Positions 15,902 to 19,344 of a DNA stretch of 38,270 nt are shown here, one piece after another. Source of the stretch: a virus (taxonomy: Duplodnaviria > Heunggongvirae > Uroviricota > Caudoviricetes); IMG/VR virus record IMGVR_UViG_2609459790_000001, positions 1 through 38,270 of that record. One strand, given 5' to 3'. The notes below the pieces were generated by a model. It worked only from the letters and a program-made list of their open reading frames with translations. It searched no databases and was not told where the DNA came from. Numbering within the stretch: position 1 is the stretch's first letter; every line of letters begins with the position of its first letter. Position numbers and translations under genes: made by a program.

Positions 15902-16225
15902 ATGAAGATGCCAGAAAAACATGACCTGTTAGCTGCCATTCTCGCGGCAAAGGAACAAGGCATCGGGGCAATCCTTGCGTTTGCAATGGCGTACCTTCGC
16001 GGCAGATATAATGGCGGTGCGTTTACAAAAACAGTAATCGACGCAACGATGTGCGCCATTATCGCCTGGTTCATTCGTGACCTTCTCGACCTCGCCGGAC
16101 TAAGTAGCAATCTCGCTTATATAACGAGCGTGTTCATCGGCTACATCGGTACTGACTCGATTGGTTCGCTTATCAAACGCTTCGCTGCTAAAAAAGCCGG
16201 AGTAGAAGATGGTGGAAATCAATAA
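15902..16225 (+). CDS. S: Holin/antiholin S (dual start S107/S105)
   Basis: 107 aa translation matches lambda S almost residue for residue ([44 protein letters not shown]...). Confidence 0.95.
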
Positions 16226-16685
16226 TCAACGTAAGGCGTTCCTCGATATGCTGGCGTGGTCGGAGGGAACTGATAACGGACGTCAGAAAACCAGAAATCA
16301 TGGTTATGACGTCATTGTAGGCGGAGAGCTATTCACTGATTACTCCGATCACCCTCGCAAACTTGTCACGCTAAACCCAAAACTCAAATCAACAGCAGCA
16401 GGACGTTACCAGCTTCTTTCCCGTTGGTGGGATGCCTATCGTAAGCAGCTTGGCCTGAAAGACTTCTCTCCGAAAAGCCAGGACGCTGTGGCACTGCAAC
16501 AGATTAAAGAGCGTGGCGCTTTGCCGATGATTGATCGCGGTGATATCCGTCAGGCAATCGACCGTTGCAGCAATATCTGGGCTTCACTGCCGGGGGCTGG
16601 TTATGGCCAGTTCGAGCATAAGGCTGACAGCCTGATTGCAAAATTCAAAGAGGCTGGCGGAACGGTCAGAGAGATTGATGTATGA
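16209..16685 (+). CDS. R: Endolysin R (lytic transglycosylase)
   Basis: 158 aa translation matches lambda R ([51 protein letters not shown]...). Confidence 0.95.
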
Positions 16686-17149
16686 GCAGAGTCACCGCGA
16701 TTATCTCCGCTCTGGTTATTTGCATCATCGTCTGCCTGTCATGGGCTGTTAATCATTACCGTGATAACGCCATTACCTACAAAGAGCAGCGCGATAAAAA
16801 AGTCAGTGAGCTGAAGCTGGCGAACGCCACCATTACTGACATGCAACAGCGCCAGCGTGATGCTGATGCACTCGATGCTAAATACACGAAGGAGTTAGCT
16901 GATGCGAAAGCTGAAAATGATGCTCTTCGGCGCAAGCTTGATAATGGTGGCAGGGTGCTCGTCAAAGGAAAATGCCCTATGCCATCCTCAGCCGAAACCT
17001 CCAGCGCCTCCGGCATGGGCAATGATGCCACCGTCGAACTCTCTCCAGTTGCTGGACGAAACGTTCTCGGTATCCGGGACGGAATCATCAGCGACCAAAC
17101 AGCACTGAGAACGCTTCAGGAATACATCAGGACGCAATGCCTTCGGTGA
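16682..17149 (+). CDS. Rz: i-spanin Rz, N-terminal half lambda-like with divergent C-terminal half
   Basis: N-terminal [34 protein letters not shown] matches lambda Rz; C-terminal region differs from remembered lambda Rz. Confidence 0.88.
16902..17108 (+). CDS. Rz1: o-spanin Rz1 (lipoprotein) embedded in the +1 frame of Rz
   Basis: [21 protein letters not shown]... with lipobox and proline-rich PPAPPAW segment, fully inside Rz as in lambda. Confidence 0.8.
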
Positions 17150-17324
17150 TAGCGATAATTTTACTCATCATCCTTCACATCTGGCTCTGTAGACAGGGTG
17201 ATGATCACTTCTGGAGTGAATCCAGATTAAACATCTCATTGCTGATGCTTGATATTGAGCATCTGGCGCGCAGTAAGGGGCTGCGTTGAGATAAGAGCCA
17301 GTCATTACAAACACCAGGATTTAG

Positions 17325-17348
17325 CCTCGCATTCGCGGGGTTTTTTAT
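17325..17348 (+). terminator. Intrinsic terminator after the lysis cassette
   Basis: CCTCGC-ATTC-GCGGGG followed by TTTTTTATT. Confidence 0.6.
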
Positions 17349-17370
17349 TCCCAACTCCATAGGTAATTTT

Positions 17371-17850
17371 ATGACCCAGCATATTGGCGTAAAACTGATT
17401 AACGCCTTTCCGATGACGAGACAGGCATATAACGATTTTCGTGGCTGGCAGCTTCCTGCCGGAGAAAACGGCGAGGACGAAGGCTATCTGGTTGAATATC
17501 TGGATGGCGGAAAACCTAACACCGATCGCTTTGATGGCTACGTTAGCTGGAGTCCAAAAGAAGTATTCGAAAAGGCTTATCGTCCGGTATCAGGACTAAG
17601 TTTCGGCCTTGCCATGGAAGCGTTAAAACAGGGCAAAAGTTTGCAGCGGGCAGGATGGAATGGGAAAGACCAGTTTGTTTATCTCGTGAAAGGGGAAAAA
17701 TTAGCGTCTGCGTTGGGTTATGGCTTTGGCGAATATGTTGGCGAGCCAACTTTCAATGACACGCTTGTATTGAAAAACTCACAGAACCGCCTTGCTACAT
17801 GGGTTCCATCCATTGGCGACCTGATGGCTGAAGACTGGCAAATCATTTAA
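17371..17850 (+). CDS. DUF2829-domain protein (Tad2-like; candidate anti-Thoeris signalling-molecule sponge)
   Basis: 159 aa; C-terminal half LSFGLAMEALKQGKSLQRAGWNGKDQFVYLV ... WVPSIGDLMAEDWQI fits the DUF2829 signature (F-x-x-A-x-x-A-L-K-x-G-K ... R-x-G-W-N-G-K ... L-x-x-E-D-W) as I recall it. Confidence 0.6.
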   Translation: MTQHIGVKLINAFPMTRQAYNDFRGWQLPAGENGEDEGYLVEYLDGGKPNTDRFDGYVSWSPKEVFEKAYRPVSGLSFGLAMEALKQGKSLQRAGWNGKDQFVYLVKGEKLASALGYGFGEYVGEPTFNDTLVLKNSQNRLATWVPSIGDLMAEDWQII

Positions 17851-18144
17851 CCATGTAGGCATTACAAAGCCTATCTACGGGTGGGCTTGATAATGAAACC
17901 GGAATTTATTCTGGGTAACCAGTTACGGCAGTACAGCGAAACAACCCAAGCCAGTAAGTGGGGAAATAACACTGGCAGCCACTGAAAGATGAACCTCCAG
18001 CCTTATGGCAAAAAAGATTCTTTGTGGTGGCGGACTGATGGAAAGACATCGGATAGAATCAAGCAGTGGCTAGGGTAGCTCCCGAAAAGCGGAATCGTCA
18101 CCGCCAGCCACTGAATCTATGACGAACAACTAGACGAGGTTGAT

Positions 18145-18387
18145 ATGAGTGAAATTGATAAAATAATAAATGGTACATGTAACTTTCAATCAATGCCGCC
18201 AGGTAGTTATGTAAAACAATGTAGTGAAATAGTTAATGGTCAGCTTGTAATGTCAAATGCAGGACGCGGAGTTTCTGCGGATGAAAAAAAATCAATAAAT
18301 GAAGCCCTGTTAAGCATCAATGTTTTTGACTTGTTTCGCCCATCTTGGGTTATCTTGCAAAATAGTAACCAATTCCCACATTATTGA
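18145..18387 (+). CDS. Hypothetical protein in an AT-rich moron-like island
   Basis: 80 aa ORF, visibly AT-rich codon usage compared with neighbours, followed by a hairpin and T-run. Confidence 0.55.
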   Translation: MSEIDKIINGTCNFQSMPPGSYVKQCSEIVNGQLVMSNAGRGVSADEKKSINEALLSINVFDLFRPSWVILQNSNQFPHY

Positions 18388-18533
18388 TAATTAATTATTA
18401 AATTGGTCGCTAAGTCGGCCTTTTTTATTGCCATCACAAAAGCCATTACCTACAGAGTGGCTTTGATAATGGCTTATACCCTACACGGGATAACTTAACT
18501 GATATCCCTTTTAACGGATAAACGGAGCCAACA

Positions 18534-18776
18534 ATGGCAGAGATTATTCCCATGACTGAAGAACAGAAATTCCAGTTAGAGATATATAAACTGGTCATGA
18601 ACCAGAACGCAGCCGCAGAGGAAGCATTTCAATTCATTGGCACTGACGAGCTGAAGCTTGAGCTATTCAAAATTCACTTCCAGTCAGGCGGCGCTAATTC
18701 GGATATCACGACCCGCACTATCGAAGCGGTGCGTAAATCGAAGGAAGCGTTAGACCTGTTCACTACCGGAGCATAA
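18534..18776 (+). CDS. Hypothetical protein upstream of the small terminase gene
   Basis: 80 aa ORF with GGAG ribosome-binding site, conserved-looking position immediately before the terminase genes. Confidence 0.6.
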   Translation: MAEIIPMTEEQKFQLEIYKLVMNQNAAAEEAFQFIGTDELKLELFKIHFQSGGANSDITTRTIEAVRKSKEALDLFTTGA

Positions 18777-18855: not shown

Positions 18856-19344
18856 ATGGCAGCACCAAAGGGCAACCGATTTTGGGAGGCCCGCAGTAGT
18901 CATGGGCGAAACCCTAAATTCGAATCGCCTGAGGCGCTGTGGGCTGCTTGTTGTGAATACTTCGAGTGGGCTGATGATAACCCGCTATGGGAGGGTAAGG
19001 TATTTTCATATCAGGGAGAAATAATTAAGGCTAATGTCCCTAAGATGCGAGCCATGACTATTTCAGGATTGTGTACCTTCCTTGATATCACCAGGCAAAC
19101 ATGGGGAACCTTCCGGTCAATGGAAGGTTTTTCTGACGTCACATCACGAGCGGAAGACATCATCTACGACCAGAAATTCTCTGGCGCAGCCGCTGACCTT
19201 CTCAACGCTAACATCATCGCCCGTGATTTGGGCCTCAAAGAGCAGTCGCAAGTTGAAGACGTGACACCTGATAAGGGAGATCGCGATAAGCGGCGCTCTC
19301 GTATCAAGGAGCTATTCAACCGTGGAACTGGACGCGATTCTTGA
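18856..19344 (+). CDS. 3: Terminase small subunit (P22 gp3-like)
   Basis: 162 aa, same length as P22 gp3, N-terminal [29 protein letters not shown] matches what I recall of P22 gp3; directly upstream of the large subunit. Confidence 0.88.

What the first reader, a model, noticed from the sequence alone, without database searches (positions are those of the whole stretch)
17853..18480. AT-rich moron (80-aa ORF) bracketed by a repeated about 22-bp motif
The 80-aa gene at 18145..18387 is noticeably AT-rich and has its own hairpin/T-run terminator. The motif CTACGGGTGGGCTTGATAATG (17875..17895) recurs as CTACAGAGTGGCTTTGATAATG (18450..18471), flanking the island. Direct repeats around an AT-rich single gene suggest acquisition by site-directed or illegitimate recombination; the gene itself has no recognisable family. 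The repeat was aligned by eye and is imperfect.
Basis: seen in the sequence. Interest (0 to 1): 0.4.

Follow-up and report, generated by a model that had tools for sequence, protein, structure and literature searches.

The report
Swappable accessory-gene cassette in P22-like prophage

Summary
The sequence features are real, but the island is not bracketed by the motif. The window is a P22-like prophage. Compared with HK620, HZ41, Sf6 and IME10, the island runs from 18053 to about 18424-18468. Its left edge lies about 155 nt downstream of motif copy 1, and a block conserved in phages lacking the island separates them.

The island has four parts:
- an int-alpA-class leader RNA (Rfam RF02996, 41.8 bits against a cut-off of 35.8; 18063-18125), extended by a hairpin presenting the ribosome-binding site;
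- an 80-aa orphan ORF under purifying selection (dN/dS 0.17-0.25);
- a conserved terminator;
- a conserved hairpin.

The "22-bp repeat" is about 40 nt of that hairpin: lower stem CAUUA/UAAUG, an invariant CA/GA internal loop, and a covarying 9-10-bp upper stem with + strand-specific G·U pairs. It occurs at 17858-17897 and 18430-18473, with a 9-nt remnant at 17303-17311.

Both full copies persist in relatives without the island. Two relatives carry a single hybrid copy with everything between missing. The neighbouring Tad2-like cassette is the one flanked by a 9-bp direct repeat of the motif.

The same leader, terminator and hairpin flank at least 27 unrelated ORF families in many phages. I read it as a moron exchanged by homologous recombination in shared flanks. 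The protein's function is unknown.

The parts
17303..17311 (+). Partial third copy of the motif (CATTACAAA), the left member of a 9-bp direct repeat around the Tad2-like cassette
   Evidence: Sf6 L003 1501-1509 aligns both to window 17303-17311 and to 17860-17868. Sf6 has one copy and no cassette.
17312..17859 (+). Neighbouring cassette: terminator-like hairpin 17323-17349 plus a 159-aa Tad2-like gene at 17371-17850
   Evidence: Terminator scan. Pfam PF11195 Tad2-like, E 6.4e-22. Replaced by hkbK/hkbL in HK620, Rha or KilA-N genes elsewhere, and nothing in Sf6.
17858..17897 (+).
   Evidence: CM R2 59 bits, E 1.4e-14. RNA fold -18.1 kcal/mol, z -5.8, against -9.4 on the minus strand. It always starts 0-3 nt after the stop codon of whichever variable gene precedes it.
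17918..18052 (+). Conserved non-coding block present in most P22-like phages whether or not the island is present; separates hairpin 1 from the island
   Evidence: 93-100% identical (mostly 96% or more) in about 70 of 80 loci and in Sf6, HK620, IME10, HZ41 and P22. No significant fold (z -1.4).
18053..18424 (+). The island proper (leader, ORF, terminator stem and T-run) relative to the empty site of HK620/HZ41. The right junction falls in the shared TTATTGC (18425-18431), or after the hairpin (about 18468) if the type-a hairpin is counted as part of the cassette
18063..18125 (+). int-alpA RNA motif: P1 18064-18070/18107-18113, P1a, P1b 18089-18092/18101-18104; P1b loop UCGUCA 18095-18100 is complementary to UGACGA 18120-18125 (pseudoknot)
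   Evidence: Rfam RF02996 41.8 bits, above the gathering score of 35.8. Consensus fold with covariation in P1. Loop/tail complementarity covaries in other phages.
18127..18142 (+). Small hairpin CAAC/GUUG presenting the Shine-Dalgarno GAGG (18136-18139), 5 nt upstream of the ATG; part of the conserved 90-nt leader 18061-18150
   Evidence: Alignment and consensus fold. CM R1 107.6 bits.
18145..18387 (+). 80-aa orphan ORF (cargo gene), GC 0.346
   Evidence: dN/dS 0.17-0.25 against 73-75%-identical alleles. Only 6 clusters among 5.8e9 protein clusters, and no real remote homologue among 1.84e9 representatives.
18405..18426 (+). Intrinsic terminator GGTCGC-TAAG-TCGGCC plus T6; a member of a widely conserved cassette terminator (AGGTCGC-N4-GCGGCC-T6-ATTG)
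   Evidence: Conserved copies after unrelated ORFs in many phages. 46 of 60 occurrences in 1.1 Mb directly follow an int-alpA-led ORF.
18430..18473 (+).
   Evidence: CM R2 53.5 bits, E 5.7e-13. Fold -18.1 kcal/mol, z -4.75. Association of hairpin type with slot occupancy.
18534..18776 (+). DUF2560 gene (HK620 hkbM / P22 orf80 homologue), the conserved right-hand neighbour; followed by gp3-type small terminase at 18856-19344
   Evidence: Pfam PF10834, E 1e-43, and PF16677.

Best explanation
The locus is one unit in a short tandem array of accessory-gene cassettes (morons). The array sits in the late operon of a P22-like prophage, between the lysis genes (R, Rz) and the DNA-packaging genes.

The unit has four parts:
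1. A roughly 90-nt structured leader: an int-alpA-class three-way-junction RNA with a pseudoknot, followed by a small hairpin that presents the Shine-Dalgarno sequence just before the ATG.
2. A cargo ORF, here an 80-aa alpha-helical orphan protein.
3. A conserved intrinsic terminator.
4. A conserved hairpin of about 40 nt.

It appears twice because the neighbouring Tad2-like cassette ends with the same element.

Shown:
- The island is polymorphic among relatives.
- The cargo alone can be swapped precisely between leader and terminator: a DUF551 gene replaces ORF80 in other prophages.
- The whole leader-ORF-terminator unit also occurs in a second late-operon slot, between the Q-like antiterminator and the holin.
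- The same flanks surround at least 27 unrelated ORF families in diverse phages.
- The hairpin's pairing is conserved through compensatory and + strand-specific G·U changes.
- Recombination joints fall inside the shared flanks.

Inferred:
- Cassettes spread by homologous or short-homology recombination in these shared flanks, not by site-specific insertion.
- The gene is transcribed as part of the antiterminated late transcript, possibly also from a weak promoter whose -10-like TAGAAT lies at 18054-18059.
- The hairpin acts at the RNA level as an intercistronic processing or stability element. An RNase III-type site is my best guess, because the internal loop lies 9-10 bp below the terminal loop.
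- The 80-aa protein is a dispensable host- or defence-directed accessory factor.
For: Context:
- R, Rz, Tad2-like, DUF2560, gp3 small terminase and large terminase.
- Best DNA matches are Lederbergvirus phages.

Borders:
- HZ41 and HK620 replace window 18053-18454 with 18 bp.
- Sf6 and IME10 carry other inserts in the same slot.

Leader:
- Rfam int-alpA above its gathering score.
- The same 85-nt leader, 76-87% identical, sits immediately upstream of unrelated ORFs in Enterobacter, Edwardsiella, Pantoea, Klebsiella, Vibrio and Pseudomonas phages.

Cargo swap:
- In L015, window 17860-18142 (97%) and 18405-18600 (96%) flank a DUF551 ORF.
- The same arrangement is seen in about 25 complete E. coli genomes, against 15 of 5426 with ORF80.

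Unit mobility:
- Window 18083-18431 is 78% identical to a cassette between the gene-23-type antiterminator and the holin.

Coding:
- dN/dS is 0.17-0.25, and a one-codon indel keeps the reading frame.

Hairpin:
- 96.7% of cells are paired and 7 of 15 pairs show double changes; slid controls pair 47% or less.
- z is -4.8 to -7.1 on the + strand and much weaker on the minus strand for two of the three types.
- Divergent copies with entirely different upper stems keep CAUUA-CA/GA-UAAUG.
- It is present in P22 itself.

Cassette generality:
- The hairpin starts 30-50 nt after the cargo stop, or ends at P1 of the next leader, also in non-P22-like lambdoid phages upstream of various terminase types.
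- 43 of 85 small int-alpA-led ORFs are followed, at a median of 18 nt, by the conserved terminator.
- Cargo ORFs fall into 27 unrelated clusters.

Recombination joints:
- L055 and L089 have a single hybrid hairpin.
- A 9-bp repeat surrounds the Tad2 cassette.
- L016 has a joint inside the 5' arm.
Against: - No promoter was found by the consensus scan upstream of the leader, so independent expression, part of the classical moron definition, is unproven.
- No expression, processing or recombination data were available. The RNA-level role of the hairpin rests only on strand-specific wobble pairs and position.
- G·T pairs would also be tolerated in + strand single-stranded DNA.
- The covariation comes from a few hairpin lineages (about 6 clearly distinct stems), so the number of independent events is small.
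- The protein model is of low confidence (pLDDT 65) and gives no clue to function.
- The cassette survey started from one exact-match pattern for the int-alpA core, so its percentages are not an unbiased census.
Confidence: 0.7

Rival explanations
1. One reading: the single gene was inserted by site-directed or illegitimate recombination, and the two motif copies are the direct repeats (duplicated target or attachment-like sites) that bracket the insertion.
For: - The two copies are truly similar.
- Loci with a single hybrid copy, and nothing between, exist (L055, L089).
- The adjacent Tad2-like cassette is flanked by a 9-bp direct repeat of the motif's first nine bases.
Against: - The island's left border (18052|18053) lies about 155 nt downstream of the end of copy 1.
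- The intervening block 17918-18052 and both motif copies are present in phages without the island: HK620, HZ41, P22 and about 40 IMG/VR loci.
- The copies are hairpins maintained by compensatory changes, not simple duplications.
- The same ORF occurs in another slot without this pair of motifs.
Confidence: 0.08
2. The hairpins are DNA-level recombination sites, folded single-stranded structures comparable to integron attC sites. A dedicated recombinase would use them to capture and excise cassettes, and the RNA hairpin would be incidental.
For: - The position at the 3' end of each cassette, the imperfect inverted repeat with an invariant 2x2 mismatch, and the sequence-conserved base (CATTACA...GATAATG) resemble attC logic.
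- Joints fall inside the 5' arm.
- G·T wobble is compatible with single-stranded DNA.
Against: - There is no integron-type core sequence (RYYYAAC/GTTRRRY) in the arms, by direct reading of the sequences.
- No candidate recombinase travels with the cassettes in the loci inspected.
- Joints occur at several different places (leader, terminator, 5' arm, downstream of the hairpin), as expected for homology-driven exchange.
- The hairpin-favouring strand is the sense strand of a highly transcribed operon.
Confidence: 0.1
3. The shared flanks are only passive linkers. The leader, terminator and hairpin are conserved because they hitch-hike with recently exchanged DNA, and the hairpin has no function of its own.
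For: Most copies within P22-like phages are 93-100% identical, so much of the conservation could be recent common descent.
Against: - Upper-stem sequences differ completely between lineages while pairing, the CA/GA loop and the CAUUA/UAAUG base are kept.
- The leader is kept at 76-87% identity across phages of different host genera, with covarying stems and pseudoknot.
- The ORFs between the flanks are unrelated.
Confidence: 0.1
4. The 80-codon ORF is not a gene. The island would be a non-coding RNA locus (int-alpA as an sRNA with a long 3' tail), and the ORF would be fortuitous.
For: - Rfam classifies int-alpA as an sRNA gene.
- The ORF has no homologues outside a few E. coli prophages.
- AT-rich sequence readily yields spurious ORFs.
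Against: - dS is 0.7-0.9 with dN about 0.15 between alleles (dN/dS 0.17-0.25), and an in-frame single-codon indel preserves the frame.
- A GAGG Shine-Dalgarno sequence lies 5 nt from the ATG, within a leader that ends at the start codon of an ORF in 109 of 120 other loci.
Confidence: 0.03

Closest known systems
Morons of lambdoid phages (concept of Juhala/Hendrix et al. 2000; used for P22-like phages in PMC2629481)
   Same: - A single extra gene lies between conserved genes of a late operon.
- It is present or absent among close relatives.
- It has atypical (AT-rich) composition and its own terminator.
   Different: - No recognisable sigma-70 promoter was found.
- The gene sits in standardised, portable flanks (structured leader, conserved terminator, conserved hairpin) shared with unrelated cargo genes.
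- The epsilon34 paper describes only the 'ant moron' and states that no morons are present at other locations in the morphogenetic gene clusters.
PeSL cassettes of T4-type phages (Arbiol et al. 2010, PMC2839356; Comeau et al. 2014, PMC4122927)
   Same: Repeated composite regulatory motifs that include a stem-loop terminator flank orphan genes in plastic regions. They mediate modular shuffling by recombination between copies.
   Different: - The sequences are unrelated.
- PeSLs are early promoter plus terminator in virulent myoviruses.
- Here the 5' module is a pseudoknotted leader RNA without an evident promoter, the 3' module is a terminator plus a second non-terminator hairpin, and the hosts are temperate lambdoid and P22-like phages.
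- No mini-circles have been shown.
Boundary sequences of lambdoid phages (Clark et al. 2001 for HK620; 'bsq' features in the Sf6 record NC_005344; idea summarised in PMC3029335)
   Same: Short conserved sequences at the junctions of mosaic modules, proposed to support homologous recombination.
   Different: - The bsq feature annotated in the Sf6 stretch examined (bsq7, inside Rz) is not this element. This hairpin carries no annotation in the Sf6, HK620 or P22 stretches examined.
- Here the boundary element has a conserved secondary structure with compensatory changes.
int-alpA RNA motif (Rfam RF02996; from the 224-motif survey, PMC5737381)
   Same: The window's 18063-18125 scores above the family's gathering threshold and has all three helices.
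   Different: - Rfam files the family as an sRNA named after neighbouring int and alpA genes.
- Here, and in 109 of 120 other viral loci, it is a 5' leader ending at the start codon of an ORF, often inside late or structural operons.
- The paper's main text does not describe the motif, and its supplement was not available.
Phage intercistronic RNase III sites and the lambda sib/tI retroregulator (from my own knowledge of T7 R1.1-type sites and lambda int regulation; not tested)
   Same: - A hairpin of about 20 bp interrupted by an internal loop sits between cistrons of a long antiterminated transcript, next to a terminator.
- The geometry would suit single-strand cleavage and differential fate of terminated and read-through transcripts.
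   Different: There is no sequence relationship and no cleavage data. In lambda the terminator is itself part of the RNase III hairpin, whereas here the terminator and hairpin are separate, adjacent elements.
Integron gene cassettes (attC)
   Same: A promoter-less ORF followed by an imperfect inverted repeat; arrays of cassettes with unrelated cargo.
   Different: - No IntI-type integrase or attI platform.
- No attC core sequences.
- Joints fall at several positions.
- There is also a conserved 5' leader.

Membership tests
Moron (lambdoid phage accessory insertion) | Present in some and absent from other closely related phages, between conserved neighbouring genes | tested here: met
   - Absent from HK620 and HZ41, where 18 bp take its place.
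- Other genes occupy the slot in Sf6 and IME10.
- 0 of 80 IMG/VR loci have it, and 15 of 5426 complete E. coli genomes do.
Moron (lambdoid phage accessory insertion) | Own promoter allowing expression independent of the operon | tested here: inconclusive
   The consensus scan found no + strand promoter upstream of the leader. By eye there is only a -10-like TAGAAT at 18054-18059 with a poor -35.
Moron (lambdoid phage accessory insertion) | Own terminator and atypical base composition | tested here: met
   Terminator at 18405-18426. GC 0.346 against 0.466 for the window.
int-alpA RNA (Rfam RF02996) | Covariance-model score at or above the curated gathering score | tested here: met
   41.8 bits against 35.8, E 1.8e-5 over the whole window.
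int-alpA RNA (Rfam RF02996) | P1 enclosing two hairpins, with conserved CUAG, CGAAAAG and CUG joining strands | tested here: met
   Alignment to the model. Consensus fold of 11 leaders with compensatory changes in P1, P1a and P1b.
int-alpA RNA (Rfam RF02996) | Neighbourhood of integrase or alpA genes (the source of the name; not a structural criterion) | tested here: not met
   Here it lies between Rz and the packaging genes, upstream of an orphan ORF.
   - The left border is 18052|18053, not 17875-17895.
- Empty sites (HK620, HZ41, P22) keep both hairpins.
- The criterion is met instead for the neighbouring Tad2-like cassette, which has a 9-bp repeat.
Integron cassette / attC | attC inverse-core and core sequences (RYYYAAC ... 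GTTRRRY) and an IntI integrase with attI nearby | tested here: not met
   The arms read CATTACA...GATAATG. No such integrase is among the genes called around the cassettes.
PeSL (T4-type promoter-early stem-loop) | A strong sigma-70-like early promoter joined to a terminator stem-loop, repeated in hyperplastic regions | tested here: not met
   A terminator is present but no promoter consensus, and the phage type is different. The resemblance is functional only.
RNase III processing site | Cleavage by RNase III in vivo or in vitro | not testable with these tools
   Only the geometry is known: lower stem of 5-7 bp, a 2x2 loop, and an upper stem of 9-10 bp.

The most novel reading that the evidence does not exclude
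The int-alpA leader, the GGTCGC...GCGGCC terminator and the CAUUACA...GAUAAUG hairpin together define a previously undescribed, widely distributed portable gene-cassette format in phages of Gammaproteobacteria.

In this reading, int-alpA is not a free-standing sRNA. It is a cis-acting leader that controls or insulates expression of whatever small accessory ORF is plugged in behind it. The hairpin is a new intercistronic RNA processing or stability element. It also serves as the homology that lets phages trade accessory (probably anti-defence) genes.
Probability: 0.3. Interest if true: 0.75.

Novelty: new variant of a known kind. Interest (0 to 1): 0.5.

Why it matters
As a single AT-rich moron, the finding is ordinary. 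Three things go beyond that.

- **A context for an orphan RNA family.** Rfam lists int-alpA with no known role. Here it is a leader that ends at the start codon of unrelated small ORFs inside phage late operons.
- **A second structured element.** A covarying hairpin marks cassette ends. It has no Rfam match, and it is unannotated in the P22, Sf6 and HK620 stretches I examined.
- **Recombination joints in the flanks.** Joints lie inside the conserved flanks. This supports the long-debated idea that short conserved boundary sequences, not only illegitimate recombination, drive part of lambdoid mosaicism.

These slots also hold a Tad2-like anti-Thoeris gene. In related phages they hold genes annotated as anti-CRISPR. 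The standard flanks could therefore be used as a search handle for new small counter-defence or host-takeover genes, and the 80-aa protein is one such candidate.

Tried and rejected
**Function of the 80-aa protein**
- No hit in Pfam, PHROGs, NCBIfam or PADLOC.
- No PDB sequence hit.
- The 5.8e9-cluster search found only 6 near-identical or 73-75%-identical clusters.
- An exhaustive HMMER profile search of 1.84e9 representatives returned only its own family plus long repetitive proteins, which I regard as compositional noise.
- The AlphaFold model has pLDDT 65 (four helices). Foldseek against BFVD gave nothing below E = 1. I ran no further fold searches because the model is too uncertain.

**Other negative results**
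- Rfam has no family for the hairpin. The only nearby hit is a spurious mir-458 match on the minus strand (E 0.64).
- The promoter scan found no + strand site upstream of the leader.
- I considered a sigma-70 promoter inside the hairpin, using GATAAT as the -10, and rejected it by eye because there is no usable -35.
- I considered and rejected an integron attC and a target-site duplication at the island borders (see the membership tests).
- The conserved block 17918-18052 has no significant fold and is not detected by the leader model.
- The supplement of the paper that defined int-alpA is not held, and the main text does not describe the motif.
- A per-sequence shuffle test for the pseudoknot was weak, because the helices are short and my loop parsing was crude. 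The argument rests on the many different complementary loop/tail pairs seen.
- None of 50,697 phage records holds the ORF.
Full report
**What the window is.** The genes around the finding are a lambda-R-type endolysin (16209-16685), Rz (16682-17149), a 50-aa Sf6-gene-65-like ORF, a 159-aa Tad2-like protein (17371-17850), the 80-aa ORF (18145-18387), a DUF2560 protein (18534-18776), a gp3-type small terminase (18856-19344) and a large terminase. The best DNA matches are Lederbergvirus (P22-like) phages such as HZ41, IME10, Sf6, HK620 and CUS-3, and every match is patchy. The finding therefore lies in the late operon of a P22-like prophage, in the variable stretch between the lysis genes and the packaging genes.

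**Checking the observation.**
- The similarity between the motif copies extends further 5' than noted, to about 40 nt from 17860 and from 18432.
- The pairwise alignment score (19) was reached by none of 2000 shuffles of the two segments. As the best direct repeat anywhere in a 951-nt region, 7 of 100 shuffles reach it. On in-window statistics alone the repeat is only suggestive.
- Comparative data settle it. A covariance model built from related phages finds exactly these two sites in the 38-kb window (E 1.4e-14 and 5.7e-13; the next hit has E 0.5).

**Where the island really is.**
- Alignment to four relatives (sequences) shows that HZ41 and HK620 match the window continuously up to 18052-18055 and again from 18455, with 18 bp in between.
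- Sf6 and IME10 match up to 18050 and again from 18433, with unrelated inserts of about 415 bp (Sf6 gene 66).
- Reading the junctions, the island is 18053 to 18424. A short TTATTGC (18425-18431) is shared with the empty site.
- The hairpin that follows comes in two forms. A 'type b' form always directly follows the conserved block in empty sites (41 loci). A 'type a' form, as in the window, always accompanies an occupied slot. The cassette as exchanged probably extends to about 18468.
- Motif copy 1 (17858-17897) is not at the left border. A conserved non-coding block (17918-18052) lies between, present in most P22-like phages, including P22 itself, whether or not anything is inserted.
- Among 80 IMG/VR loci that encode an identical DUF2560 protein, none has the 80-aa ORF. 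About 40 have the empty arrangement, about 25 the gene-66 type, and three have another int-alpA-led cassette.
- In complete E. coli genomes the full island occurs in 15 of 5426, and in none of 50,697 phage records.

**What the repeated motif is.**
- Each copy is an imperfect inverted repeat. As + strand RNA it folds into a lower stem (CAUUA/UAAUG, often extended), an invariant 2x2 internal loop (5' CA, 3' GA), an upper stem of 9-10 bp and a small loop. Free energies are -18 to -24 kcal/mol with z-scores of -4.8 to -7.1.
- The minus strand folds much less well for two of the three types.
- I collected 46 distinct variants from about 110 loci and aligned 36 of them. In that alignment 96.7% of cells form standard pairs and 7 of 15 pairs show changes on both sides. 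Sliding the 3' partner by 1-3 columns drops pairing to 33-47%.
- The three main types differ by A-U to G-C exchanges at three stem positions.
- One upper-stem pair is U·G in 32 of 36 variants and would be a C·A mismatch on the other strand.
- More distant copies (L043, L083, L014) have completely different upper stems but the same base (L043 and L083 also keep the CA/GA loop).
- P22 itself has a copy at NC_002371 40309-40349, overlapped by a doubtful 'orf25' annotation.
- Rfam has no family for it.
- Caveat: the variants fall into a handful of lineages, so the number of independent compensatory events is small.

**The motif and recombination.**
- Copy 1 always begins 0-3 nt after the stop codon of whichever variable gene precedes it. 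At least eight different upstream contexts are seen. It is therefore the right-hand boundary of a first variable slot.
- In the window that slot holds a terminator plus the Tad2-like gene (17312-17859). This cassette is flanked by a 9-bp direct repeat, CATTACAAA, at 17303-17311 and 17860-17868. Sf6 has one copy and no cassette.
- In L016 another cassette joint lies inside the 5' arm of the hairpin.
- In L055 and L089 a single hybrid hairpin, with the copy-1 body and the copy-2 right flank, replaces both copies, and everything between them is absent.
But the two copies are standing features of the phage family rather than scars of this insertion, and the ORF80 island is not the DNA they delimit.

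**The island's own anatomy.**
- Rfam places an int-alpA RNA (RF02996) at 18063-18125, 41.8 bits against a gathering score of 35.8. It sits immediately upstream of the ORF.
- The same roughly 85-nt stretch, 76-87% identical and running up to the start codon, lies immediately upstream of unrelated ORFs inside structural or late operons of Enterobacter phage Tyrion, Edwardsiella GF-2, Pantoea PA-1, Klebsiella prophages, a Vibrio phage and two Pseudomonas phages.
- An alignment of 11 leaders gives P1 (with compensatory changes), P1a and P1b, plus a further small hairpin that holds the GAGG Shine-Dalgarno sequence in or at its loop, 3-5 nt before the ATG.
- The P1b loop (UCGUCA, 18095-18100) is complementary to UGACGA at 18120-18125. 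In other phages the loop and tail change together, for example GUCCUA/UAGGAC, AUCCAG/CUGGAU, UCGCUA/UAGCGA and UUGAACCA/UGGUUCGA. This indicates a pseudoknot.
- A model of the whole leader scores 107.6 bits in the window and finds no second copy there.

**The cassette format is general.**
- In L015, and in about 25 complete E. coli genomes, the same slot holds the same leader (window 17860-18142, 97%) and the same terminator and hairpin (18405-18600, 96%). A DUF551 ORF replaces ORF80. The cargo has been exchanged exactly between leader and terminator.
- A 73%-identical allele of ORF80 occurs with a covarying version of the leader and the same terminator in a different slot, between the gene-23-type antiterminator and the holin. 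The leader-ORF-terminator unit therefore moves as a whole.
- In 109 of these the motif is followed at the expected distance by a complete ORF. The 75 ORFs from the first 80 loci fall into 27 unrelated clusters, with Pfam hits only for DUF551, DUF1376 and ANT/Bro-N.
- Of 85 small cargo ORFs, 43 are followed, at a median of 18 nt, by a nearly invariant terminator (AGGTCGC-N4-GCGGCC-T6-ATTG), and 29 by the hairpin.
- 46 of the 60 occurrences of that terminator in 1.1 Mb directly follow an int-alpA-led ORF.
- The hairpin model hits 50 places in 80 of these loci, including lambdoid phages that are not P22-like. There the cassette sits between Rz and terminase genes of several types. The hairpin starts 30-50 nt after the cargo stop or ends at P1 of the next leader.

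**The cargo.**
- ORF80 is a real gene. Against the 73-75%-identical alleles, dS is 0.68-0.93 and dN 0.14-0.18 (dN/dS 0.17-0.25), and the only length difference is one codon.
- It has no family in any library and no detectable remote homologue.
- The structure model is a low-confidence four-helix bundle without fold matches.
- Its function cannot be read from sequence. My guess of a dispensable host- or defence-directed factor rests only on its rarity and on its neighbours. Those are a Tad2-like gene in the adjacent slot and genes labelled anti-CRISPR by the annotators of phage Huey in the same two slots.

**Mechanism, and what is inferred.**
- Shown: polymorphism of the island, standard flanks shared by unrelated cargo, structure conservation of the leader and hairpin, and joints inside the flanks.
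- Inferred: exchange by homologous or short-homology recombination in those flanks, the 'boundary sequence' idea. It is functionally parallel to the PeSL cassettes of T4-type phages.
- Inferred: transcription mainly as part of the antiterminated late transcript. No promoter passed the scan, although a -10-like TAnnnT hexamer lies 4-7 nt upstream of P1 in most leaders (TAGAAT at 18054-18059 here, read by eye).
- Inferred: an RNA-level role for the hairpin. Its geometry, with an internal loop 9-10 bp below the terminal loop and about 20 bp overall, and its position next to a terminator recall phage RNase III sites and the lambda sib retroregulator. That comparison comes from my own knowledge and is untested.

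**Verdict.**
- The sequence features are real.
- The interpretation as an acquired single-gene island with an orphan protein is right.
- The idea that the two motif copies bracket it is wrong.
- The motif turns out to be a conserved, apparently undescribed hairpin that marks cassette ends.
- Taken alone the island is an ordinary moron. The standard leader/terminator/hairpin format, and the context it gives to the int-alpA RNA, are the parts worth following up.

Noticed in passing
window 17312-17859 (gene 17371-17850): A 159-aa protein with a Tad2-like (anti-Thoeris) domain (PF11195, E 6e-22; PHROG 872), preceded by a terminator-like hairpin at 17323-17349. The 548-bp cassette is flanked by a 9-bp direct repeat, CATTACAAA (17303-17311 and 17860-17868). 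Sf6 has the single-copy empty site.
   Followed up: partly
window 17918-18052: - A non-coding block kept at 93-100% identity (mostly 96% or more) in most P22-like phages, including P22.
- It contains an ATG (17989) whose short ORF ends differently in each phage.
- The epsilon34 record annotates this stretch as similar to the N-terminus of ST64T orf118, so it may be the stump of an older gene.
- No significant RNA fold (z -1.4).
   Followed up: partly
window 17970-17986 and 18099-18115: A 17-nt direct repeat (CACTGGCAGCCACTGAA / CACCGCCAGCCACTGAA, 15 of 17). The second copy is the 3' half of the int-alpA motif, so the conserved block may contain a decayed int-alpA copy. The leader model does not detect one.
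   Followed up: no
window 17908-17918: The window, like HZ41 and several prophages, lacks about 58 bp that Sf6, HK620 and IME10 have between hairpin 1 and the conserved block.
   Followed up: no
window 18095-18100 with 18120-18125; loci L110-L189: The loop of the second int-alpA hairpin is complementary to a stretch 6-15 nt after P1. Many different complementary loop/tail pairs occur in other phages, which indicates a pseudoknot. I could not check whether this is already in the Rfam description.
   Followed up: partly
window 18054-18059; the same position in L021-L029, L111, L114, L126, L128: A -10-like hexamer (TAGAAT, TAAAAT, TACAAT or GATAAT) lies 4-7 nt upstream of P1 in most leaders. In some loci it is supplied by the 3' arm of the preceding hairpin. 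No matching -35 was seen.
   Followed up: no
window 18405-18431; many loci: A nearly invariant terminator (AGGTCGC-N4-GCGGCC-T6-ATTG) recurs after unrelated small ORFs in many phage types. That is unusual sequence conservation for a terminator.
   Followed up: partly
window 18474-18533: The leader of the DUF2560 gene, downstream of hairpin 2, is highly conserved and contains another inverted repeat (18474-18492 / 18503-18521, 74% complementary).
   Followed up: no
L230 (P22, NC_002371 40400-40710): In P22, the stretch between hairpin 2 and orf80 holds about 650 bp with what looks like an unannotated minus-strand ORF and its terminator. The annotated 'orf25' overlaps the hairpin.
   Followed up: no
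L013 1323-1401; L011 1916-2068: Related prophages carry an isrJ-like sRNA hit, or two tRNA genes, in the antiterminator-holin slot. This is the slot that holds the ORF80 paralogue in other phages.
   Followed up: no
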